Below are positions 10,499 through 39,366 of a stretch of 39,409 nt of DNA, piece by piece. The stretch's first letter is position 1; each line of letters starts with the position of its first letter. The position numbers were made by a program, and so were the translations under genes. Under the pieces are notes generated by a model. It was not told the origin of the DNA. It did not search any database and saw nothing but the letters and a program-made list of their open reading frames with translations. The stretch is from Promethearchaeota archaeon (GTDB taxonomy: Archaea; Asgardarchaeota; Thorarchaeia; Thorarchaeales; Thorarchaeaceae): contig WJMJ01000028.1 in assembly GCA_014728035.1 (NCBI GenBank), positions 1 to 39,409 of the forward strand. Direction: 5' to 3'.

Positions 10499-11464
10499 AT
10501 GGAATCACACCACGTGGAATTCATTGGACACGACGGACAGACATACCACTACGACACACGTATCAGAGATGATAGTGTAGCTGGTCATCCAGTTAAGATG
10601 ACCAGTTTTCACTCCGTCGTTGATCCACATTGGAGTACATCATACCTACTTTTAGTACAACAGGCAGAACGAGAGGCTCGACATGAGATATGTGGAGCAG
10701 AGACCCAGAAAGGTTCTCCTTGTAAACAATATCCATTAAAATTAGAAGATGAACCGTATCCAGATGAGATTGGTCGTTGTAGTAGACATAGACCTTCAAT
10801 GAAAAAAGAAGAACCTTCTTCACCACCACCAACTTCTATCGCCTTATCTCCGTCTCGTTCTCCACCACCAGCACCAACTGACTCTCGACTTGCTGACACC
10901 CTGATGGATATAGCAGACGAGCATTTCTTCTTACGTTGTCAGGCATGTATCAACAGGGTACAATGTGATGAGAGGGGAGGAGCCAACGATATATGCATGA
11001 AGGAAAAACGTCTCTTCCAACAGTTGTTGGTGGAGATGATAGAGACATATGACTTGGAAGATGTGGCTGATTATTTCACATCAGTGAGTGTAGTAGACAC
11101 GATGATAAAAATAATCAGAACAAGTGCATATGAGGGTCAGTACGGAATCATTGAGTCCATAAACTCCGGTAATGCGCAATATAACATCCATCTGAAGAAA
11201 CTATTGAACAGCACCCTTAAACTACTTGGTGTTGATAGAAAGACCAGAATCAGTGTGAGACATAAGAGCGGTAAGGTCGAGATGTTCTCAGGTAGTATTG
11301 CAAAGGCTCTAGCCTCAGCAAAGATCACAGACGCTGAGGTTATAGACGCGACCAAACAGATGGAAAAGGATATCAAAATGGAAGAACCAAAGGGAACCAG
11401 AAAGGGCCCAGCTGTTGGTATCCATGGTAAAATTATAAAGGATGATGAACCTATTGAGTCCTAA
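10499..11464 (+). CDS. Putative terminase small subunit / Zn-binding DNA-packaging protein
   Basis: ICGAETQKGSPCKQ...GRCSRH (HGGxSTG-like Zn module), a second CQAC..C..C cluster, and it overlaps the terminase large subunit start. Confidence 0.5.
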   Translation: MESHHVEFIGHDGQTYHYDTRIRDDSVAGHPVKMTSFHSVVDPHWSTSYLLLVQQAEREARHEICGAETQKGSPCKQYPLKLEDEPYPDEIGRCSRHRPSMKKEEPSSPPPTSIALSPSRSPPPAPTDSRLADTLMDIADEHFFLRCQACINRVQCDERGGANDICMKEKRLFQQLLVEMIETYDLEDVADYFTSVSVVDTMIKIIRTSAYEGQYGIIESINSGNAQYNIHLKKLLNSTLKLLGVDRKTRISVRHKSGKVEMFSGSIAKALASAKITDAEVIDATKQMEKDIKMEEPKGTRKGPAVGIHGKIIKDDEPIES

Positions 11465-14165
11465 GAAGAAGAAAAAAAAATTAGAAGAGAATATAGAGCT
11501 GACGGCAGAGCTCATCGCTCGGGTGAAGAGAGACCCTGTTGCGTTTGCTCGTATATTCTGTAAATTTTATCCTCATTGGTACCAAGTCAAGATTCTTCGT
11601 GATATGTCAAAAAATATCGCGATACGGATGGGAAGACAGATGGGTAAGACAGCTGCCACTGCAATCAAGGCACTGTGGTATGCATTCACCCGTCCTGAAG
11701 CTTCAACACCACAGGAACAGGTGACCATTGTAATCATCGCTCCATCCCAACGACAGAGTAAAATCATGTATAATCAAATCAGGTCTTATATTCATGCTAA
11801 CCCTATACTTGAGGCAAGTGTCATCAAGAGTACACAACAGACAATCAAACTTGATAATAATTCTGTGATATACAACTTTCCAGTAGGCGACTCTGCTGAA
11901 AAGGTACGAGGATTCTCAATCAATCTACTCATCGTTGACGAGGCCGCATTTATCAAGCAGAGAATCTTCACTGCTATCCTACCTTCACTAGCTGGAACGA
12001 ATGGAAGTCTTATTCTCATCGGAACGCCTGCCTCGCGAACAGGCCTATTTTACCAAGCGTTCTATCCAGGTAAAGACGGTAGTGGTGTAAAGTTACGATT
12101 CAGTACTCATTGGTATCCATATTCTGACGCTTTAGATGTACAACGTGTTGATAAAAACGGTGTACCATTGTTTGATAAAGATGGTAATCCTATAACACAA
12201 TTATCGCGTGACTGGATTGAATATCAATACACAAGTATGAGTAAGGGAGAGTTTGCCCAAGAGTTCGAGGCAAAGTTTGTTGATGAGAGTCTGGGATACT
12301 TCACACGAGAAGACCTTATTGCTAATGTTGAAGACTATTCAATGGAACATGTACATGATGGTGAGAGTGTATATGCTATGGGTGTTGACTTTGCTAAATA
12401 TCATGACTCCTATGTAGCACTGGTCATCAAACGAGACATAAATGGTATCACTAGGGTTGTATATACTCTAGAGGCACGAAATAGAAACTATTCTGAGACC
12501 GTACCATTGACCATCAAGATTGCAAAACGATTCAGATGTCGTTATGTATTCTGTGATAGTACCGGTGTCGGTGAACCAAATGCTGAAATCATAGAGAAGG
12601 AACTAAAGGGTATATCAATTGTCAAATCAGTCAATATGAGTAGTCTTCAGAAACAGATAGATATGTATTCCAATCTTCAACGAATGTTTGGTGAAGGGGT
12701 ATTGAAGATACCAGCTTCGAATCGTGAACTCATCAGTCAGTTGTCGTTGGTGATGAGAACAATAACACCAAGTGGACGGGTAAAGATTGAAGCAGCAGAA
12801 GGACAACATGACGACTTTTGTTTTGATGGTTCAACAAAGGTTCAAACAACAAACGGATATATAGATATTAGTAAGATCAAAAAAGGTGATATAGTATTAA
12901 CATCGTCTGGTCATAAAAAGGTTATCAATACGTCAGAACGCGAGATTAATGAACTTGTCTATAGAGTGAAAGTAAAGGGAAGACCAACATTTACTTGTAC
13001 AAAAAATCACCCCTTTAAGACAGTTGATGGTGATTTTGATATAATTGATAACCTTCAATACTTGCGAAAGGATTTTATTAAACTTAATGAACGAAGATTC
13101 ATTGATTTGGCTGAAATCCAATATGATGAAGGAAAACACGGGTCAAGCAAGATTATAGTAAATGAAGATACTATCTCTTATATGAATGGTAGATTAACGA
13201 CACTACCAAGATATATACAACTTGACTATGATTTTGGGTTTATCATCGGAGCATATCTAGCAGAAGGAAGCATTGGTGCACATGACATACAATTCACATT
13301 GAATAAAACTGATGACCCCTTAATAGAAATAATAAAAGAAAAATTCAAGAATGTGTTTGGTTGTGAATTGAGCTATATCGAACATGATAATAATTCTTGT
13401 AATCTATACAAGAGTTCATTGATATTAAGAAAATTATTCAAAACATTAATACCAGGAATTTCATCATCAAAGAGGATACACCCACTACTATTCTCAAATA
13501 AGGATTTCCTACGTGGATTAATTGAAGCCTACTATAAGGGCGATGGTTGTATTATTAATAATGGAAGAGGATTTTCTGTTTCAACAAATAGTTTGAATCT
13601 TGCATATCAAATTACTGATATATTGAACCTATTTGGTATTTATGGTAATATTCACACTTCACATAGAAAAGGAAAGTCAATGAATCTTCATGAACATAAA
13701 TATACCCATAATCATAACTTACACCAGATACGTATTTCAGGTTCATGGTATGTCAATAAGTTTATTGATTTATTTTGGAATGAATATGAACATATATCAG
13801 ATAATAAATTTCATTATTGTAAAGAGAAATGGTATGATGATTTCGTACTTATTCCATTCAAGAAGAATGAAATAGAATATATCGGTTCTGTATATAACTT
13901 ATATATTGATGACGTGAATGAATTCTCAATTGGTTCAGCTACTGTACATAATTGTGACGCATTAGCCTTAGCATGTATGATGACTGTAAATAATCCCAAT
14001 CCTCCAAAGACATTAGCTACATCAGTAAAGAGTGTTTTCTCTAAGAAAACACATAGGCATACCGCAACCACACCACAGAGAAGAAGACAACAGACACCAT
14101 ATAGACAAGTAGCAGTGTTCGATGAGAGAGGACGAATAATAGGAACTAGAACAGAACAACGGTGA
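11442..14165 (+). CDS. terL: Terminase large subunit with one intein (about 529 aa spliced)
   Basis: HWYQ adenine motif, Walker A GRQMGKT, Walker B LLIVDEAAF, LIGTP coupling motif, and nuclease motifs GVDFA, DSTGVG and HDDF|CDAL. Confidence 0.95.
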   Translation: MMNLLSPKKKKKKLEENIELTAELIARVKRDPVAFARIFCKFYPHWYQVKILRDMSKNIAIRMGRQMGKTAATAIKALWYAFTRPEASTPQEQVTIVIIAPSQRQSKIMYNQIRSYIHANPILEASVIKSTQQTIKLDNNSVIYNFPVGDSAEKVRGFSINLLIVDEAAFIKQRIFTAILPSLAGTNGSLILIGTPASRTGLFYQAFYPGKDGSGVKLRFSTHWYPYSDALDVQRVDKNGVPLFDKDGNPITQLSRDWIEYQYTSMSKGEFAQEFEAKFVDESLGYFTREDLIANVEDYSMEHVHDGESVYAMGVDFAKYHDSYVALVIKRDINGITRVVYTLEARNRNYSETVPLTIKIAKRFRCRYVFCDSTGVGEPNAEIIEKELKGISIVKSVNMSSLQKQIDMYSNLQRMFGEGVLKIPASNRELISQLSLVMRTITPSGRVKIEAAEGQHDDFCFDGSTKVQTTNGYIDISKIKKGDIVLTSSGHKKVINTSEREINELVYRVKVKGRPTFTCTKNHPFKTVDGDFDIIDNLQYLRKDFIKLNERRFIDLAEIQYDEGKHGSSKIIVNEDTISYMNGRLTTLPRYIQLDYDFGFIIGAYLAEGSIGAHDIQFTLNKTDDPLIEIIKEKFKNVFGCELSYIEHDNNSCNLYKSSLILRKLFKTLIPGISSSKRIHPLLFSNKDFLRGLIEAYYKGDGCIINNGRGFSVSTNSLNLAYQITDILNLFGIYGNIHTSHRKGKSMNLHEHKYTHNHNLHQIRISGSWYVNKFIDLFWNEYEHISDNKFHYCKEKWYDDFVLIPFKKNEIEYIGSVYNLYIDDVNEFSIGSATVHNCDALALACMMTVNNPNPPKTLATSVKSVFSKKTHRHTATTPQRRRQQTPYRQVAVFDERGRIIGTRTEQR
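12819..13952 (+). mobile_element. Intein with LAGLIDADG endonuclease in the TerL nuclease domain (378 aa)
   Basis: CFDGST...TKNHPF...IIGAYLAEGS...LIEAYYKGDG...TVHN|C. Confidence 0.92.
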
Positions 14166-33328: not shown

Positions 33329-34132
33329 TCATGTGTTCTGCCGTACGGCTATATTTTTCAATCGACTAACAATAAATGGTAACATCCAGACATCGTTCTC
33401 ATTATAAGCAAATACATTAGGATCTAACGGCTCTCGAAATATTGCATGTCGTTCATAATGTTCTGCACATTCCTTACCATCCATATAATCATCACGAGCC
33501 TCTAATGACATGTCATATCCAAGAAACCGTGCCATTGTCTTAAGCTTTCTATTCTTTGTTGGTAGATAATATGATTTACGAAGCTCATAACATATATCTT
33601 GTTCAGGCTGAGTAAATATTGAATGTTCCATCAGACCATTCCTTGCACATGCATTTTGGGTCACCCTTACATCAAACCCGTTACATGAATAATACATGAG
33701 CGGTCTTCCTGGTCTCACTGATAAAAATTCATCGAATCGCTGTAACATATAATATTCATCGTTCCATGAATCAGCAAAGAAACTGTAAAACTTCTTCTCC
33801 TTGGCATCCACAACACCGATAAGCCAAATCTTGCTCCATTTTAAATCAGTCTCAATATCAAACCATAATGGATAACCAGGTAACCATCTCGGGTCTCGAC
33901 GTTTTATGACCAGATGGGAACAGTATTGTGCTGTATGAATGATGTTCACCATCATATCATGTGATATACCAAGCGACCTAGCAATAGCAATAGGATTCTC
34001 TGCTTCAATGATTGATCCAATCGTAGTATAACCTTTATCATGTAGTCGTTGTACTGCGGAACGAGTGATTCCACCTTTATCACTCTCAAGTAGAGTGAAT
34101 ATAGAATCCTCGCACGCCATCTTGATTGTCAT
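33329..34132 (-). CDS. YprB/RNase_H_2-like DEDD 3'-5' exonuclease with N-terminal HhH-like domain
   Basis: WFDIETD (Exo I), YYSCNGFD (Exo II), LKTMARFLGY and YNENDV (Exo III). Confidence 0.8.
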   Translation of the reverse strand: MTIKMACEDSIFTLLESDKGGITRSAVQRLHDKGYTTIGSIIEAENPIAIARSLGISHDMMVNIIHTAQYCSHLVIKRRDPRWLPGYPLWFDIETDLKWSKIWLIGVVDAKEKKFYSFFADSWNDEYYMLQRFDEFLSVRPGRPLMYYSCNGFDVRVTQNACARNGLMEHSIFTQPEQDICYELRKSYYLPTKNRKLKTMARFLGYDMSLEARDDYMDGKECAEHYERHAIFREPLDPNVFAYNENDVWMLPFIVSRLKNIAVRQNT

Positions 34133-34212: not shown

Positions 34213-35808
34213 TTATTCTTTATTCAAGACATAATCAATATAATCAAGGACAGAATTATTCCATCCAAAGATTTGAATGATATCATATTCTTCTCGAACG
34301 TCTTCAGGAAACGGTTGTGAATCATATGAATCTATTCGGATTAAAATAGCTTTGGCCATCGGGAACTTACGTTTGTAGGTCTTCCACCAACCTAACCATC
34401 CATCACCAAATTCGATGGTATCGGTAATCCAAATCAGTGTATCGAATTGTAATCGGTTCCACCGTTTTGGTCTCTTGGTACCTCGTACTGCCAAACTACG
34501 ATTATATCCATGAGCACTTTGTCCATCTATATGTCCGTTCAACATATATTTTAATGGTAGTTCCATAAATGTTCCACCACCACCAGTTCTCTTCACCGCT
34601 TCAGTCATTGAAATGATTGAATCATTCTTTGGTGGAGCAGTGTATAGTGATGTTGACCATGGAAAGATATCCGATTCTTCAATCCCTTTGTATAGTACGA
34701 CACCAAATAACGCAGCGATGTCGATATATGCTAGTGAACTTTTATTGAAGTTCAGTGTCATTGAACCTGATACGTCTGGACAGACTGCTACTCGCCCCCA
34801 ATTAGTGAAATCATACTTTGGTAGGAATTCTTCCATGACACTCGCAAGACCATTTCGAAATCTTGTGCTAGTGATTTGTTGAAAGGCTTGAAACACCCTG
34901 AAAGGAAATACCTTCGCCTTTAACAGGTTCTCAGCACTGATTCGACCATCTTTTCCTAACAAGAAATCATAGACTTCATCGTCCTTATCAAGATCATGAC
35001 GTTCGAATGTTGCTAGATGTCTTAACAATGCAAATACCCCCATCTGTCTCATCATTATCTTCCATAGTTCGGGAGATTTTGGGAGCATTGATAGTACAGA
35101 ATAATCTAGTCTCCCTTTCTTGATAAGTCGTTCAACATTATCAAGATCAGTAGGATCAATCTGTTTTATCTCTTCAAACGCCTGAAGTTTCTCAAGTTCA
35201 GGTGGAATCTCATATTCTTCATCCTTCCATTTATTATCATACTTACGCATGAGATATTGAATGATTTTGAATGAAGTATCATCAATGTCTTCTTCTGAAG
35301 GTCTTGATACTCTGATACCTCGTACAACCTCGTTACCATACTTAATGGCATAAAACTCACTCAGTTTTACCTTTAACCATTCTTTGATGGCTCGTTTGAT
35401 TCCACGACCAAATCCTCTACCTCGTGCCTGTCTTGCGTCCATAAAATCTGATAAATCGTTACCAGTTCTGATAACATCATTAAAGATACGTTGAGCAGTT
35501 TTAATGTCTTTCTCAGATAGAATAGTTAGTGCAAGGATAGGCATAGTTCGCATGAATCCATCGTTTCGAGCAATGGGAACCCATTTCTCAAGTAAATCAA
35601 CCGGTGCACGTTCTAACAACTCAACGGCTTCTCTAGTCATCTCATGTTTACCTGCATAATAAACCTTCTCTAATCTCCCTGTATGAAGTAATTGAATCAG
35701 TCTATCTTCATCATTCATCTTCCATGCTGGGAAATTTTGCTTGTTCTTAGTATCAGCCGTTGCATAGGTAGCAGGACTGATATCTAGTTCTTTAAATTTC
35801 TTTGGCAT
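34213..35808 (-). CDS. rsr: Ro60/TROVE-vWA RNA-binding protein
   Basis: TROVE helical region (R.MPILAL, GRGFGRGIKRAIKEW, KY, ALLRHLATF, KVFPFR) plus vWA MIDAS DVSGSM, GGGT and ITD; 531 aa. Confidence 0.92.
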   Translation of the reverse strand: MPKKFKELDISPATYATADTKNKQNFPAWKMNDEDRLIQLLHTGRLEKVYYAGKHEMTREAVELLERAPVDLLEKWVPIARNDGFMRTMPILALTILSEKDIKTAQRIFNDVIRTGNDLSDFMDARQARGRGFGRGIKRAIKEWLKVKLSEFYAIKYGNEVVRGIRVSRPSEEDIDDTSFKIIQYLMRKYDNKWKDEEYEIPPELEKLQAFEEIKQIDPTDLDNVERLIKKGRLDYSVLSMLPKSPELWKIMMRQMGVFALLRHLATFERHDLDKDDEVYDFLLGKDGRISAENLLKAKVFPFRVFQAFQQITSTRFRNGLASVMEEFLPKYDFTNWGRVAVCPDVSGSMTLNFNKSSLAYIDIAALFGVVLYKGIEESDIFPWSTSLYTAPPKNDSIISMTEAVKRTGGGGTFMELPLKYMLNGHIDGQSAHGYNRSLAVRGTKRPKRWNRLQFDTLIWITDTIEFGDGWLGWWKTYKRKFPMAKAILIRIDSYDSQPFPEDVREEYDIIQIFGWNNSVLDYIDYVLNKE

Positions 35809-35858
35809 TTATGTCACCTCACGCCCACGTCAAAATAAGTATCTTCTAGGATAGATAT

Positions 35859-35952
35859 ATTGACGGGGATTTAGGGGTTGTATGGTAGTAAATATCGGAT
35901 CTCCCGACGAGTGTTACGTACACGAAGTAACCATACAATGGACCCCGACAAT
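35859..35952 (-). ncRNA. Y-RNA-like element 1 (also the 5' leader of Ro60)
   Basis: Outer stem AUUGUCGGGG/CCCCGUCAAU, inner stem UUGUAUGGU/ACCAUACAA and motif GUAUGGUUACUUCGU; own BRE-TATA box. Confidence 0.7.
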
Positions 35953-35969
35953 TATTATAGTATCTCAAA

Positions 35970-35988
35970 CCCTTATATATTTTTTGTT
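35970..35988 (-). promoter_or_regulatory. BRE-TATA promoter for Y-like element 1 and Ro60
   Basis: Minus strand AACAAAAAATATATAAGGG, about 20 nt before the stem start. Confidence 0.65.
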
Positions 35989-35998
35989 ATAGAAAACT

Positions 35999-36466
35999 TT
36001 ACACCTTGAGGGCGTCTCCAACACTCATAGTGATTTCAAAATTATCAAGTAATTTGACTATCTTATCCACCTTCTTTTGAATACCATTGATTCTCTTCTC
36101 AATCTCACTGAATTTATATTCAAGGGTATCCTTTTTAGCTAACCAATCAGGATGAAGATTACTAAGAAGATCATATATTTCAGTTGGTTGTGGAACATAT
36201 CGCTTAGCGAACTCTTTATCAACGATATCTTTATACAACTCACCAGTATCCCAGATTGATATATTATCAATGGTAATAGAGAAAAAATCGATGAGTTCAC
36301 TTGTCTTACGTCTCTGTACGAACCTTGTTACTGCATCTATGATATCATCTTTCTCTTTTTTCTTTATATCATAACTAACAGATTTAGGCATATCAAGATA
36401 ATCTGCTACCTTTCTCAAAACTTCTTCATGGCTATTAAATTCATATTCAGTCATCTTCGGAATCAC
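35999..36466 (-). CDS. Hypothetical protein with C-terminal coiled coil
   Basis: 155-aa ORF between the Y-like elements. Confidence 0.6.
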   Translation of the reverse strand: MIPKMTEYEFNSHEEVLRKVADYLDMPKSVSYDIKKKEKDDIIDAVTRFVQRRKTSELIDFFSITIDNISIWDTGELYKDIVDKEFAKRYVPQPTEIYDLLSNLHPDWLAKKDTLEYKFSEIEKRINGIQKKVDKIVKLLDNFEITMSVGDALKV

Positions 36467-36541
36467 TTCCTAATCACATCACTGTGATATCTTTATAAGA
36501 ACCAGAATGAATATAATATTTCTGATATGATACAAAAAAGG

Positions 36542-36631
36542 TGAAGAACAGACGATGACAAAAAAATATCTCTCCAGTCGTATTATTATTATCGCCTGAT
36601 ATCTCGAAATAAGTTTTACGTCCGTTCTTCA
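36542..36631 (-). ncRNA. Y-RNA-like element 3 (degenerate)
   Basis: 13-bp stem UGAAGAACGGACG/CGUCUGUUCUUCA and motif CUUAUUUCG, followed by a CUUUUUUG terminator tract. Confidence 0.45.
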
Positions 36632-36637
36632 ATGATG

Positions 36638-36712
36638 ATACAGAGGATTAGATTCGTATGGGCTTATATTCCATTTCATTAGACGAAGTAACCATACGGA
36701 AGACCTCTGTAT
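36638..36712 (-). ncRNA. Y-RNA-like element 2
   Basis: Outer stem AUACAGAGG/CCUCUGUAU, inner stem CGUAUGG/CCAUACG and the same 15-nt motif GUAUGGUUACUUCGU as element 1. Confidence 0.7.
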
Positions 36713-36732
36713 ATAATCATATGTAAACCAAA

Positions 36733-36751
36733 GTCTTATAAAGTTTTTGTT
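36733..36751 (-). promoter_or_regulatory. BRE-TATA promoter for Y-like elements 2 and 3
   Basis: Minus strand AACAAAAACTTTATAAGAC, 23 nt before the stem start; back-to-back with a + strand box for the SLOG gene. Confidence 0.65.
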
Positions 36752-36778
36752 AAACAAAAATATAGATAAGGAGTATAT

Positions 36779-37240
36779 ATGATGAAGATTGGAATTATTG
36801 GAAGTCGAAGATACCGAAATAAAACCTTTGTAAAAAGGGTCATAAACCTATTACCATCTGATACAAGAGTCATATCAGGAGGGTGTGATGGTGTAGATAC
36901 ATGGGCAGTACAATACGCGAAAAAATTAGGTCTCAAGACACATGAATTCATCCCAGAATTTCAGTCCCGTGAGGCGTTTTTCAGCAGAAACAGACTCATC
37001 GCCATCAACACCGATGTTCTTATCGCCTTCATACCGCTTGGACAGATGAGAAGCGGAGCGTGGAATACCATCAACTATCAACGAGAATTCAAGAAACCCT
37101 ATGTTGTCTTTGATGAACATGGTGATACATGGGATAGGGAATGGAAAACAAAGACCTTGATAAAACTCATAAACATCCATGAACAATGGACTCAAATCCA
37201 ACAGAAGATACATAAGGAATCTCGACGTATTACATCATGA
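36779..37240 (+). CDS. SLOG-superfamily (DprA/YspA-like Rossmann) protein
   Basis: IGIIGSR, VISGGCDGVD and RNRLIA..TDVLIAF. Confidence 0.8.
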   Translation: MMKIGIIGSRRYRNKTFVKRVINLLPSDTRVISGGCDGVDTWAVQYAKKLGLKTHEFIPEFQSREAFFSRNRLIAINTDVLIAFIPLGQMRSGAWNTINYQREFKKPYVVFDEHGDTWDREWKTKTLIKLINIHEQWTQIQQKIHKESRRITS

Positions 37241-38325: not shown

Positions 38326-38400
38326 TGGGGCCGTATGAGAGAATCGAACTCTCAACCAGTGGACCACAACCACTTATTTTCCCATTAAACTAATACGGCC
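38326..38400 (-). tRNA. tRNA-His(GTG)
   Basis: Encoded G-1, acceptor GCCGTAT/ATACGGC, C73 and CCA; anticodon arm AGTGG-TTGTGGT-CCACT; T-loop TTCGATT. Confidence 0.95.
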
Positions 38401-38405
38401 ATGGT

Positions 38406-38490
38406 TGGCGCTACCGGCAAGTCTCGATCTTGCATACCCGAAGGTATCAGCTTAGCAGACTGACGTTTTTGCCAATTCAACCACGGTAGC
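38406..38490 (-). tRNA. tRNA-Ser(GCT)
   Basis: Acceptor GCTACCG/CGGTAGC, G73, CCA; anticodon loop CTGCTAA; long variable arm TACC-TTCG-GGTA; atypical T-loop ATCGAGA. Confidence 0.9.
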
Positions 38491-38871
38491 TTATATTATT
38501 TTACTGCTATCATACTCGCCATAGTGGATTGCACGATGACAGTTAGAGCATACACATGCACACTTATCAATCTCTGCTAATATACGTTCTTTTGAATATC
38601 TGGCTCGTACCATCCCACTCACCGTGAGGTTTTTGTTATGACGTTTGTGTCCATCTTTATGATGGAAATCAAGAACATACCATCTATCCTCTCCACACAG
38701 TTCACAAGATTTTGTTTGTTTCAGATCAACGTACCATTGCATCAATGTGTGTCGTTTCTCTCGTCGTTTAGCTCGTAAGGCCTCAAGCTCCTCCTCTGAG
38801 AGACTTGCTCTCTTTCTCCTAGCCCATAAGCGTTGATATTCTCGTTGTTTCTCTGGATTCTTATATGGAAT
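38491..38871 (-). CDS. HNH endonuclease embedded in the tRNA array (probable ATT start, 126 aa)
   Basis: CELCG...LDFHH...KCACVCSNCHRAIH. The frame extends upstream of the track start to (I/M)PYKNPEKQREYQR at ATT 38871. Confidence 0.82.
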   Translation of the reverse strand: MPYKNPEKQREYQRLWARRKRASLSEEELEALRAKRREKRHTLMQWYVDLKQTKSCELCGEDRWYVLDFHHKDGHKRHNKNLTVSGMVRARYSKERILAEIDKCACVCSNCHRAIHYGEYDSSKII

Positions 38872-38932
38872 GGTTCGACACCCATCAATCCAGAGAGTTG
38901 AACATTATTTAAACACTTCGGCCTATGAAGAA

Positions 38933-39036
38933 TGGCGCCCTCGCGGGGAATCCCGTAAAGGATGAACACATCCTCTATATCGAACCCCGACCATCTGGGT
39001 GACAACCAGATATCGTTACCAATTGACTACGAGGGC
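38933..39036 (-). tRNA. tRNA-Asp(GTC) with a 29-nt BHB intron at 59/60 (intron 38950-38978)
   Basis: Acceptor GCCCTCG/CGAGGGC, G73, CCA; anticodon arm TCTGG-TTGTCAC-CCAGA; removing the intron restores the T-arm CGGGG-TTCGATT-CCCCG. Confidence 0.93.
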
Positions 39037-39039
39037 ATA

Positions 39040-39130
39040 TGGCGCCACCGACACGATTCGAACGTGCATGTCATGTTTCAGACGACGGTTTTCAAGACCG
39101 CTGGGATAGCCAATTCCCCGACACGGTGGC
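39040..39130 (-). tRNA. tRNA-Ser(TGA)
   Basis: Acceptor GCCACCG/CGGTGGC, G73, CCA; anticodon loop CTTGAAA; long variable arm; T-loop TTCGAAT. Confidence 0.9.
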
Positions 39131-39135
39131 ATATA

Positions 39136-39212
39136 TGGAGCAGAGGGTCGGACTCGAACCGACACATCACAGGTCAACAGCCTGTTCGTCTGACCGATTA
39201 GCGTACCTCTGC
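39136..39212 (-). tRNA. tRNA-Asn(GTT)
   Basis: Acceptor GCAGAGG/CCTCTGC, CCA; anticodon arm ACAGG-CTGTTGA-CCTGT; T-loop TTCGAGT. Confidence 0.88.
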
Positions 39213-39213
39213 A

Positions 39214-39289
39214 TGGAACCTCTGGTGGGAGTTGCACCCACTTACTTTTCCTTACAAGGGAAACGCATTTCTCCATATGCTTCAGAGGC
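39214..39289 (-). tRNA. tRNA-Thr(TGT)
   Basis: Acceptor GCCTCTG/CAGAGGT, U73, CCA; anticodon arm TTTCC-CTTGTAA-GGAAA; T-loop TGCAACT. Confidence 0.85.
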
Positions 39290-39290
39290 A

Positions 39291-39366
39291 TGGAGCTGAA
39301 GATGAGACTTGCACTCATTATCCCCACCTTACCAAGGTGGTGCATGTCTATATATGCTCCTTCAGC
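39291..39366 (-). tRNA. tRNA-Thr(GGT)
   Basis: Acceptor GCTGAAG/CTTCAGC, U73, CCA; anticodon arm CCACC-TTGGTAA-GGTGG; T-loop TGCAAGT. Confidence 0.85.

What the first reader, a model, noticed from the sequence alone, without database searches (positions are those of the whole stretch)
34213..36751. Ro60 (TROVE) with its own family of Y-RNA-like genes in an archaeal virus
Seen: two intergenic elements on the Ro60 strand (35859-35952 and 36638-36712) share the exact 15-mer GUAUGGUUACUUCGU (+ strand 35922-35936 and 36683-36697). They share one architecture: outer stem, GGUC/CUAA(A)UCC internal loop, GUAUGG/CCAUAC stem and UUACUUCG. The outer stems differ in sequence but still pair, the inner stem shows U-A versus C-G covariation, and each element starts 20-23 nt after an AACAAAAA-TATA box. 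Knowledge: bacterial and some phage rsr genes are flanked by Y/Yrl RNAs; I recall a GUUACUUC-like 5' strand in YrlA, which needs checking. These copies lack the YrlA T-arm (GGUUCGAAUCC). Inference: a minimal, undescribed archaeal-virus Y RNA class forming Ro RNPs, plausibly for tRNA/RNA quality control or against host ribonuclease defences, given the neighbouring tRNA array.
Basis: partly seen in the sequence, partly recalled or inferred. Interest (0 to 1): 0.85.

Follow-up and report, generated by a model that had tools for sequence, protein, structure and literature searches.

The report
Viral Ro60 with two Y-like RNAs
A tailed virus binned with an Asgard archaeon carries a gene for the RNA-surveillance ring protein Ro60 and, just upstream, two small structured RNA genes from a widespread but undescribed family of likely Ro60 partner RNAs, which would be the first Y-type RNAs pinned down for an archaeal virus.

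Summary
Two intergenic elements on the Ro60 strand (el1 35859-35952, el2 36638-36712) share an exact 15-mer, the same two-stem architecture and a near-identical archaeal BRE/TATA promoter. The predicted transcription start falls on the first base of each outer stem.

The ORF is a true Ro60: its model has TM 0.72 to human, frog, Deinococcus and phage Ro60, and the MIDAS motif is intact.

The decisive test used a covariance model built only from elements beside Ro60 homologues in other genomes. It picked el2 (27 bits, E 2e-4) and el1 (17 bits, E 0.05) as the top two hits in the 39-kb window. The family has 47 copies in 23 Ro60 loci plus this window, all on the Ro60 strand, and all 17 base pairs covary.

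Some members carry a tRNA-like T/D-arm module and give sub-threshold hits to Rfam YrlA. The window's copies are minimal, YrlB-like forms and match no Rfam family.

So this is a new variant of a known kind (Ro60/Y RNA). It is not specific to archaeal viruses. Ro60 in Asgard viruses is already published, without the RNAs. Binding, expression and function are untested. el1 is probably co-transcribed with Ro60.

This scan has already noted similar Ro60 'handle' RNAs on other DNA, including Asgard genomes.

The parts
34213..35808 (-). Ro60 gene (531 aa; TROVE HEAT-repeat ring plus vWA domain with MIDAS motif)
   Evidence: PDB sequence search: human Ro60 E 4e-10 over residues 21-421. AlphaFold model: pLDDT 81, pTM 0.75. 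Foldseek: top 12 hits are all Ro60/Rsr/phiLo Ro60, TM 0.72, E 3e-17. D345/S347/S349/T413/D463 are invariant in the homologue alignment. Pfam TROVE and vWA_Ro60 score below their cut-offs.
35814..35820 (-). Shine-Dalgarno-like GAGGUGA, 5 nt before the Ro60 AUG
   Evidence: Read from the sequence.
35859..35952 (-). el1: Y-like RNA, minimal form (outer stem, GGUCC internal loop, inner stem, UUACUUCG, two small apical hairpins). It ends 50 nt before the Ro60 AUG.
   Evidence: Fold. Model R1, built without window sequences: 17.2 bits, E 0.047, full length. Model R2: 23.8 bits.
35972..35988 (-). BRE/TATA-type promoter of el1 (AACAAAAAATATATAAG). The predicted start, about 35949, falls on the start of the outer stem.
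   Evidence: Motif unique to the two elements. Alignment of the upstream regions. The geometry is my inference from the usual archaeal spacing, with the TATA box centred near -26/-27.
35999..36466 (-). ORF of 155 aa (or 150 aa from ATG 36451), unknown function, between the two RNA genes. It has its own TATA-like box and SD.
   Evidence: ORF list. No Pfam hit. No homologue in any other Ro60 locus.
36001..36015 (-). Terminator-like hairpin followed by a T-rich tail, straight after the 155-aa ORF's stop and just before the el1 promoter
36534..36566 (-). T7 (36560-36566) and T6 (36534-36539) runs downstream of el2: candidate archaeal termination signals for the el2 unit
36638..36712 (-). el2: Y-like RNA, minimal form, a stand-alone transcription unit
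   Evidence: Fold z -4.3. Model R1: 27.2 bits, E 1.7e-4, the top hit in the window. Model R2: 52.4 bits.
36735..36751 (-). BRE/TATA-type promoter of el2 (AACAAAAACTTTATAAG). The predicted start, about 36712, is the first base of the outer stem.
33329..34132 (-). Context: RNase H-fold (PF13482) protein directly downstream of Ro60
   Evidence: Pfam E 6e-18. Not conserved beside Ro60 elsewhere.
36779..37240 (+). Context: SLOG/DprA-like protein, transcribed divergently from el2
   Evidence: Pfam PF02481, 34.9 bits. Myxococcus phage Mx1 also has a SLOG protein near its Ro60.
38326..39366 (-). Context: tRNA array (His, Ser, Ser, Asn, Thr, Thr, plus an intron-bearing Asp candidate)

Best explanation
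The two elements are genes for small non-coding RNAs that are the virus's own Y-type partners of its Ro60 protein.

Each RNA starts at an archaeal BRE/TATA promoter. Its 5' and 3' ends pair into a two-part stem, the 'handle': an outer stem ending in GG, an asymmetric internal loop (5' UC.., 3' CUAA(A)U), and an inner stem followed by single-stranded UUACUUCG.

By analogy with metazoan Y RNAs and bacterial Yrn1/YrlA/YrlB, the Ro60 ring binds this handle. The small apical part is then left to gate Ro60's RNA-binding surface or to recruit an effector. In bacteria and in Thermus phage phiLo that effector is the 3'-5' exonuclease PNPase. In an archaeal host, the PNPase-like exosome is the obvious candidate.

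The window's copies are minimal, YrlB-like forms without the tRNA-like module of YrlA. el2 is a stand-alone unit. el1 is most likely made from the same transcript as Ro60, as the leader or processed from it.

Shown here: family membership, conserved structure, and linkage to Ro60. Inferred: binding, transcript ends, the effector and the biological role.
For: 1. Ro60 identity is established.

2. Model R1, built only from five elements beside Ro60 homologues in other genomes, was run over the whole window on both strands with filters off. Its two best hits are el2 (27.2 bits, E 1.7e-4) and el1 (17.2 bits, E 0.047), both full length. The next hit scores 10.8 bits.

3. Model R2 finds 47 copies: 45 in 23 Ro60 loci plus the 2 in this window. 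All are on the Ro60 strand; 37 are upstream and 8 downstream, at a median distance of 167 nt.

4. Covariation is strong. 88% of cells are paired against 41-52% when partners are slid; the score is 0.91 against 0.13-0.17; 17 of 17 pairs show double changes. A MAFFT-only alignment not fitted to the model gives 89.5% against 51-62%, with 12 of 18 pairs showing double changes.

5. Specificity is high. Among 80 IMG/VR loci that all contain the 5' sequence pattern, model hits occur in all 5 loci with a Ro60 homologue and in only 1 of the other 75.

6. The same handle encloses tRNA-like modules that hit Rfam YrlA RF02553 below threshold. L011 2820-2942 scores 35.2 bits, E 2.7e-6, full length. The control, Gordonia phage Neville, scores 44 bits.

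7. The promoter motif is unique to the two elements, with starts predicted at the stem bases. A terminator-like site lies before el1's promoter and T-runs follow el2.

8. Precedent exists. Y RNAs lie within 4 kb of Ro60 on the same strand in more than 250 bacteria and 22 phages (PMC4201824). phiLo Ro60 binds two Yrl RNAs encoded upstream of its gene and forms a complex with host PNPase (PMC12135203).
Against: There are no expression or binding data.

The classical Ro-contact motifs are not present as such. Vertebrates have GGUCCGA and bacteria GNCGAAN0-1G, whereas el1 has GGUCCAU and el2 GGUCUUC.

Neither element hits Rfam Y_RNA or YrlA, even at E<=10.

el1's score with the independent model is modest (E about 0.05, with rough calibration).

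No T-run of 5 or more separates el1 from the Ro60 AUG, so el1 may act in cis. In the full leader context its minimum-energy fold is an alternative one.

The window's two copies contain no G-U pairs, so their strand rests on the promoter, the motif orientation and the model score (27.2 bits against 9.2 on the other strand).

Host assignment rests on binning, archaeal-type signals and homologues. No CRISPR spacer matches the contig.
Confidence: 0.78

Rival explanations
1. el1, and perhaps the family members that abut Ro60, acts mainly in cis. It would be a structured 5' leader or operator of the Ro60 mRNA through which Ro60 controls its own translation or stability, rather than a free Y RNA. This partly overlaps the main reading, because the RNA could do both.
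For: el1 ends 50 nt before the Ro60 AUG, with no T-run of 5 or more and no clear promoter between them. In L002 and L012 the last element lies about 20 nt or less before the Ro60 SD/AUG. The full leader's minimum-energy fold re-pairs the outer-stem 3' strand CCCCGUCAA with UUGACGUGGG near the SD. An earlier scan note, e1-5564176, proposes such a switch.
Against: el2 has the same architecture and promoter. Yet it is separated from Ro60 by another gene with its own TATA/SD, by T6/T7 runs and by a terminator-like hairpin. In 8 of 45 cases the elements lie downstream of Ro60. Loci carry up to 6 tandem copies (L014). In the alternative fold the SD is not sequestered.
Confidence: 0.2
2. The elements are DNA-level signals, such as operators, inverted repeats for a DNA-binding protein, or origin or recombination sites. 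The shared 15-mer would then be a protein-binding site.
For: Each is an imperfect inverted repeat next to a shared promoter. The + strand also folds (z -1.7 and -4.1).
Against: Across 47 copies the sequence is free to vary while the pairing is kept. 59 of 794 paired cells are G-U wobbles, which would be A-C mismatches on the other strand (tallied by hand from the per-pair counts). Orientation relative to Ro60 is invariant. The conserved single-stranded motif is asymmetric. Some members enclose tRNA-like domains.
Confidence: 0.03
3. The RNAs are real but work with a partner other than Ro60, for example the neighbouring 155-aa protein, the SLOG-like protein, or host tRNA-processing enzymes. On this view their proximity to Ro60 reflects only a shared RNA-repair island.
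For: Ro60 loci often sit in islands of tRNA and RNA-metabolism genes. Ro-independent tRNA-like RNAs have been proposed in the literature (cited in 10.1101/312249).
Against: Ro60 is the only gene shared by the loci that carry the family. The window's neighbours have no homologues in any other locus. The Ro60-to-RNA association is 5/5 against 1/75 in the IMG/VR sample.
Confidence: 0.05
4. The two copies are decaying remnants of once tRNA-like YrlA genes and no longer function.
For: They lack the tRNA-like module. The contig has no YrlA-type copy.
Against: Both keep perfect Watson-Crick stems with different sequences, intact promoters and the invariant motif. Minimal forms are common in the family: roughly 60% of the 47 copies carry neither a T-arm nor a D-arm motif. 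They occur in tandem in other viral contigs such as L053.
Confidence: 0.04

Closest known systems
Bacterial and phage Y RNAs: YrlA/YrlB of Salmonella and Mycobacterium, and YrlA of mycobacteriophages (Chen et al. 2014, PMC4201824; Rfam RF02553)
   Same: They are encoded within a few hundred nt of Ro60 on the same strand, often as two or more copies. The 5' and 3' ends form the protein-binding stem. A conserved short motif sits at the junction after the stem, at the position of YrlA's CGAAUGCuu. Family members with the same handle carry T and D arms and hit RF02553 below threshold. YrlB is, like el1 and el2, a form without the tRNA-like domain.
   Different: The handle is two-part (outer stem, internal loop, inner stem), with consensus GAGGUG ... 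UUUCAACG/UUACUUCG ... UUAGU-CCUC. There is no GNCGAAN0-1G motif. The window's copies have no tRNA-like module and give no RF02553 hit. They have archaeal BRE/TATA promoters and sit in an archaeal virus.
Thermus phage phiLo Ro60 with Yrl1 and Yrl2 (PMC12135203; PDB 9KOP, 9L5Y)
   Same: A virus-encoded Ro60 has two small Y-like RNAs encoded upstream of its gene, each a stem, bulge and stem. The window's Ro60 model matches the phiLo structure at TM 0.60-0.63 normalised to the query and 0.68-0.71 normalised to the target.
   Different: phiLo is a bacteriophage and its RNAs are defined by a CGAA motif. Binding and a PNPase complex were shown there, whereas nothing has been tested here. Sequence identity is about 18-19%.
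Metazoan Y RNAs and Deinococcus Yrn1 (Rfam RF00019; PDB 1YVP)
   Same: A long bulged stem is made by the two ends, with a GGUC-type 5' strand (el1 GGUCC, el2 GGUCU, against vertebrate GGUCCGA), a large apical loop and a length of 75-130 nt.
   Different: There is no RF00019 hit. The 3' strand lacks UUGACU. The transcription machinery differs.
Ro60 of Nidhogg viruses of Helarchaeota (Rambo et al., bioRxiv 10.1101/2021.07.29.454249)
   Same: It is a TROVE+vWA Ro60 encoded by a tailed virus of Asgard archaea.
   Different: That paper only suggests that Ro60 'may' bind a Y RNA and identifies no RNA. I could not test how that virus relates to this contig.

Membership tests
Ro60 / Rsr (TROVE ring plus vWA) | Full-length fold: HEAT-repeat ring closed by a C-terminal vWA domain | tested here: met
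   AlphaFold model with pLDDT 81. The top 12 Foldseek PDB hits are all Ro60 proteins, TM 0.72, E down to 3e-17. phmmer to human Ro60 gives E 4e-10.
Ro60 / Rsr (TROVE ring plus vWA) | MIDAS motif DxSxS...T...D in the vWA domain | tested here: met
   D345, S347, S349, T413 and D463 are invariant in 14 homologues.
Ro60 / Rsr (TROVE ring plus vWA) | Pfam PF05731 TROVE and PF25045 vWA_Ro60 at the gathering score | tested here: not met
   19.1 bits against a cut-off of 23, and 21 bits against 27.7. Most homologues at 30-40% identity carry one or both domains precomputed. The protein is a divergent member.
Y RNA in the broad sense (Ro60-bound ncRNA) | Encoded close to Ro60 on the same strand (bacterial and phage rule: within 4 kb) | tested here: met
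   el1 lies 50 nt and el2 829 nt upstream of the Ro60 AUG, on the same strand.
Y RNA in the broad sense (Ro60-bound ncRNA) | The 5' and 3' ends pair into a conserved stem carrying the protein-binding site, with a variable apical module | tested here: met
   Folds. Covariation of both helices in 47 homologues. Predicted transcription starts fall at the stem bases.
Y RNA in the broad sense (Ro60-bound ncRNA) | Ro-contact motif GGUCCGA (metazoa) or GNCGAAN0-1G (bacteria) in the 5' strand | tested here: inconclusive
   el1 has GGUCCAU, el2 has GGUCUUC, and the family consensus is GAGGUG(C). These occupy the same position but are not the published motifs (PMC4201824).
Y RNA in the broad sense (Ro60-bound ncRNA) | Physical binding by Ro60 and existence as a discrete small RNA | not testable with these tools
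   This needs EMSA or co-purification and small-RNA sequencing.
YrlA (Rfam RF02553) | Score at or above the gathering threshold of 69 bits | tested here: not met
   No hit at E<=10 in 35780-36800 and none at E<=1 in the whole window. The model does detect relatives: Neville 44 bits, L011 35.2 bits.
YrlA (Rfam RF02553) | tRNA-like effector module (T arm GGUUCGAnUCC and D arm) | tested here: not met
   Absent from el1 and el2. Present in other members sharing the same handle.
Metazoan-type Y RNA (Rfam RF00019) | Match to the covariance model | tested here: not met
   No hit.
Ro60-linked 'handle' RNA family defined here (models R1 and R2) | Significant full-length match to a model built without the window's sequences | tested here: met
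   el2 scores 27.2 bits, E 1.7e-4, and el1 scores 17.2 bits, E 0.047. They rank 1 and 2 in the window; the next hit scores 10.8 bits.
Ro60-linked 'handle' RNA family defined here (models R1 and R2) | GRGGY, about 11 nt, then UU(U/A)C(A/U)(A/U)CG, closed by an outer stem ending in ..CCYC | tested here: met
   The spacing is 11 nt in el1 and el2, as in L002, L012, L019, L033 and L036.

The most novel reading that the evidence does not exclude
The two-part-handle RNAs would be the Y RNAs of Asgard archaea and their viruses. The virus would use its own Ro60-Y RNP to dock onto the host's PNPase-like exosome, or another 3'-5' nuclease, to remodel host or viral RNA pools or to blunt RNA-targeting defences. 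The long bulged terminal stem with a GGUC-type strand would then make this lineage architecturally closer to eukaryotic Y RNAs than bacterial YrlA is, which bears on where the eukaryotic Ro/Y particle came from.
Probability: 0.12. Interest if true: 0.85.

Novelty: new variant of a known kind. Interest (0 to 1): 0.6.

Why it matters
Ro60/Y RNA particles are well studied in animals and a few bacteria and phages. For archaea and their viruses only the protein has been noticed.

Pinning down the partner RNAs gives testable reagents for an archaeal-type Ro RNP: a 531-aa protein and two RNAs of 75-95 nt with clear promoters. The RNAs' shared handle is not in Rfam and joins minimal forms and tRNA-like forms in one family.

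It also shows that viruses carry the complete protein-plus-RNA module between domains. This fits the patchy presence of Ro60 in Asgard genomes, found in 5 of 400 searched.

Tried and rejected
The contigs of the two closest Ro60 homologues, P0002 (47% identity) and P0003 (43%, on a 108-kb contig), could therefore not be fetched.
- Single-protein scans of IMG/VR with the window's Ro60, P0002, P0003 and the RNase H-like neighbour found nothing.
- The genome-contig scan gave only one truncated Jordarchaeum locus.
- Rfam gave no family for el1 or el2.
- The genome search with model R2 on the window's own genome returned nothing, even for the window itself, so it is uninformative. A regex scan of the genome found no further copies outside C161.
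- None of the 14 CRISPR spacers of the MAG matches the contig.
- No gene neighbouring Ro60 in the window is conserved in the other Ro60 loci. I therefore dropped the idea of a fixed multi-gene module that includes the RNase H-fold or SLOG protein.
- A first brute-force folding script timed out.
- MAFFT alone misaligned the 3' halves of the longer elements, so the alignments were bootstrapped through the covariance model.
Full report
**Setting**

The window is a whole 39.4-kb contig (C161) of a 4.3-Mb metagenome-assembled genome. Another member of that genome's phylum (G118) carries the same sequence as a record named Candidatus Jordarchaeum. The bin is therefore Asgardarchaeota.

The contig encodes a large terminase, a ribonucleotide reductase, a helicase and a tRNA array. 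The terminase's best match in the phage collection by E-value and bit score is the archaeal virus HGTV-1 (27% identity, E 4e-33).

GC content is 37.8% against 39.5% for the bin. The tetranucleotide correlation is 0.89 against a median of 0.99. That pattern fits a virus of this or a similar host.

Archaeal signals on the contig include the BRE/TATA promoters below. They also include a tRNA-Asp candidate with a bulge-helix-bulge intron in its T-loop at 38933-39036.

No CRISPR spacer links host and contig.

**The protein**

ORF 34213-35808(-) encodes 531 aa.

- Pfam TROVE and vWA_Ro60 match only below their cut-offs.
- phmmer finds human and Xenopus Ro60, E 4e-10 over residues 21-421.
- An AlphaFold model (pLDDT 81, pTM 0.75) has Ro60 proteins as its 12 best PDB matches: human, Xenopus, Deinococcus Rsr and Thermus phage phiLo. 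TM is 0.72 and E is 3e-17.
- The MIDAS residues D345, S347, S349, T413 and D463 are invariant among homologues.
- The nearest relatives are 40-47% identical. The named ones are Asgard MAGs: Freyarchaeota, Promethearchaeota, Sigynarchaeota and Lokiarchaeota.
- Only 5 of 400 genomes of the phylum have a match, and none of the 85 other genomes of the bin's own family does.

Ro60 here is a sporadic gene that is probably carried by mobile elements.

**The observation**

- The exact 15-mer occurs only at 35922-35936 and 36683-36697.
- Both elements fold into outer stem, internal loop, inner stem, UUACUUCG and an apical part.
- The outer stems are unrelated in sequence yet fully Watson-Crick. The inner stem's closing pair is U-A in el1 and C-G in el2.
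- The roughly 50 nt upstream are about three-quarters identical. They contain AACAAAAANTNTATAAG, which occurs nowhere else in the window.
- I placed the TATA centre at the usual archaeal distance of -26/-27. This predicts starts near 35949 and 36712, at the first bases of the outer stems (inference from geometry).

**Is it a family?**

Upstream or downstream of Ro60 homologues in other genomes I found elements with the same plan. These genomes were one IMG/VR contig, 34 metagenome loci and some Asgard genomes. Examples are two elements in L002, one in L012, and several in L011 (a 342-kb Freyarchaeota contig), L014 and L019.

The spacing from GRGGY to UU(U/A)C(A/U)(A/U)CG is about 11 nt throughout.

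Model R1 was built from five of these elements and none from the window. I ran it with filters off over the whole window on both strands. Its two best hits were el2 (27.2 bits, E 1.7e-4) and el1 (17.2 bits, E 0.047), both full length. The next hit scored 10.8 bits. This is the independent membership test.

A second model, R2, finds 47 copies: 45 in 23 Ro60 loci plus the 2 in the window.

- All lie on the Ro60 strand.
- In the 23 loci, 37 copies are upstream and 8 downstream, at a median of 167 nt from the gene.

On that alignment the covariation figures are as follows:

- 88.4% of cells pair, against 41-52% when partners are slid.
- The covariation score is 0.91, against 0.13-0.17.
- All 17 pairs show changes on both sides.

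The alignment is fitted to the model. The MAFFT-only alignment of five sequences gives the same picture: 89.5% against 51-62%, with 12 of 18 pairs showing double changes.

By my hand tally of the per-pair counts, about 7% of paired cells are G-U. This favours RNA on the Ro60 strand.

**Specificity**

An IMG/VR scan with the 5' sequence pattern returned 80 loci, mostly chance matches. R2 hits occurred only in L053, L067, L082, L122, L062 and L049. Ro60 homologues are present in exactly the first five of these and in none of the other 75 loci.

**Relation to known Y RNAs**

Rfam does contain YrlA (RF02553). It detects the control beside the Ro60 of Gordonia phage Neville at 44 bits.

It also detects, below threshold, those family members that carry T and D arms inside the same handle. 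L011 2820-2942 scores 35.2 bits, E 2.7e-6, over the full model. Two L014 copies score 27-33 bits.

In that alignment the family's inner stem corresponds to YrlA's terminal stem. UUACUUCG lies where YrlA has AUGCuu, directly after the published GNCGAAN0-1G motif (PMC4201824). The family has an additional outer stem and internal loop that the Rfam model lacks.

el1 and el2 have no tRNA-like module and no Rfam match. In that respect they resemble YrlB or the phiLo Yrl RNAs. Roughly 60% of the 47 copies are such minimal forms. Other viral contigs carry three or four of them in tandem after Ro60, for example L053.

**Transcription units**

A terminator-like hairpin with a T tail (36015-36001) follows the 155-aa ORF and precedes el1's promoter. 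After el2 come T7 and T6 runs (36566-36534), then a separate TATA/SD for the 155-aa ORF. el2 therefore looks like a stand-alone unit.

Between el1 and the Ro60 AUG there is no T-run of 5 or more, only UUAUUUU, and then the SD GAGGUGA. el1 is therefore probably co-transcribed with Ro60. Relatives show the same pattern: their last element lies about 20 nt or less before the Ro60 SD/AUG (L002, L012).

In the full leader the minimum-energy fold is an alternative one. GGGGU pairs with ACCCC, and CCCCGUCAA pairs with UUGACGUGGG. A cis role for el1 therefore cannot be excluded. It is compatible with the main reading.

**Mechanism**

Shown: a real Ro60; two RNA genes of a conserved, covarying, Ro60-linked family; and promoter architecture.

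Inferred from the Ro60/Y RNA paradigm (PMC4201824, 10.1101/312249, PMC12135203):
- Ro60 binds the handle.
- The apical part gates Ro60 or tethers it to an effector nuclease.
- In an archaeal host the PNPase-like exosome is the natural candidate.

Ro60 homologues recur beside tRNA arrays. This fits a role in tRNA/RNA surveillance or repair during infection, but it proves nothing.

**Novelty**

Ro60 in Asgard viruses is published, for the Nidhogg viruses. That paper says only that Ro60 'may' bind a Y RNA (10.1101/2021.07.29.454249). Phage Ro60 with Y-like RNAs is known (PMC4201824, PMC12135203).

I found no paper in the held library on archaeal or archaeal-virus Y RNAs, and no Rfam family for this handle.

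Earlier notes of this scan report similar Ro60-linked handle RNAs on other DNA, including Asgard genomes. These are unchecked AI notes and do not count as independent evidence.

Verdict: a new variant of a known kind, of moderate to high interest.

Noticed in passing
window 38933-39036 (-): A tRNA-Asp(GUC) candidate with encoded CCA and a 29-nt insertion in the T-loop that forms a bulge-helix-bulge motif (UUCG/CGGG helix, bulges AUA and AUU). ARAGORN and Rfam both miss it. By eye, the cloverleaf and the BHB hold. It supports an archaeal host.
   Followed up: partly
window 35795-35955 (-): In the full Ro60 leader, el1's minimum-energy fold is an alternative one. GGGGU pairs with ACCCC of the 3' loop, and the outer-stem strand CCCCGUCAA pairs with UUGACGUGGG just before the SD. 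This could be a switch, or it could be chance.
   Followed up: partly
window 35832-35840 and 36606-36614 (-): Both elements are followed 18-23 nt downstream by the same word ACUUAUUU(U/C). It may be a 3'-end or termination signal.
   Followed up: no
window 35814-35820 (-): The Ro60 Shine-Dalgarno GAGGUGA is the same word as the family's handle 5' consensus GAGGUG.
   Followed up: no
L047 1680-1820 (Halogranum tailed virus 1, upstream of its TROVE gene): The intergenic region holds a long hairpin with a GUCCGAG 5' strand, resembling metazoan GGUCCGA, and an AAUUUCAACCG word. It is a possible Y-like RNA of a cultured archaeal virus. Model R2 does not hit it.
   Followed up: no
L022 2674-2744: An Rfam int-alpA RNA (RF02996, 48.6 bits, above its gathering score) lies directly downstream of a Ro60 homologue that also has a handle RNA upstream.
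   Followed up: no
L006, L024, L028, L029, L034, L038/L040, L042, L045: Ro60 homologues are repeatedly embedded in or next to tRNA arrays; L034 also has a tmRNA. The same holds in the window.
   Followed up: partly
L011 2729-2956 (Freyarchaeota, 342-kb contig): A cellular Asgard Ro60 is preceded by one minimal handle RNA and one handle RNA enclosing T and D arms, with a TTTAAATA box upstream. Both forms therefore coexist in one archaeal locus.
   Followed up: partly
window 11442-14165 (+): The large terminase ORF is 907 aa. Its terminase matches cover only about residues 18-460, and weak matches to other families follow. It may carry an intein or a fused domain.
   Followed up: no
window 36779-37240 (+) and L046 1083-1841: A SLOG/DprA-like protein lies next to the Ro60 region both here and in Myxococcus phage Mx1, where it is annotated as a YspA-like SLOG protein. 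I detected no sequence similarity between the two loci.
   Followed up: partly
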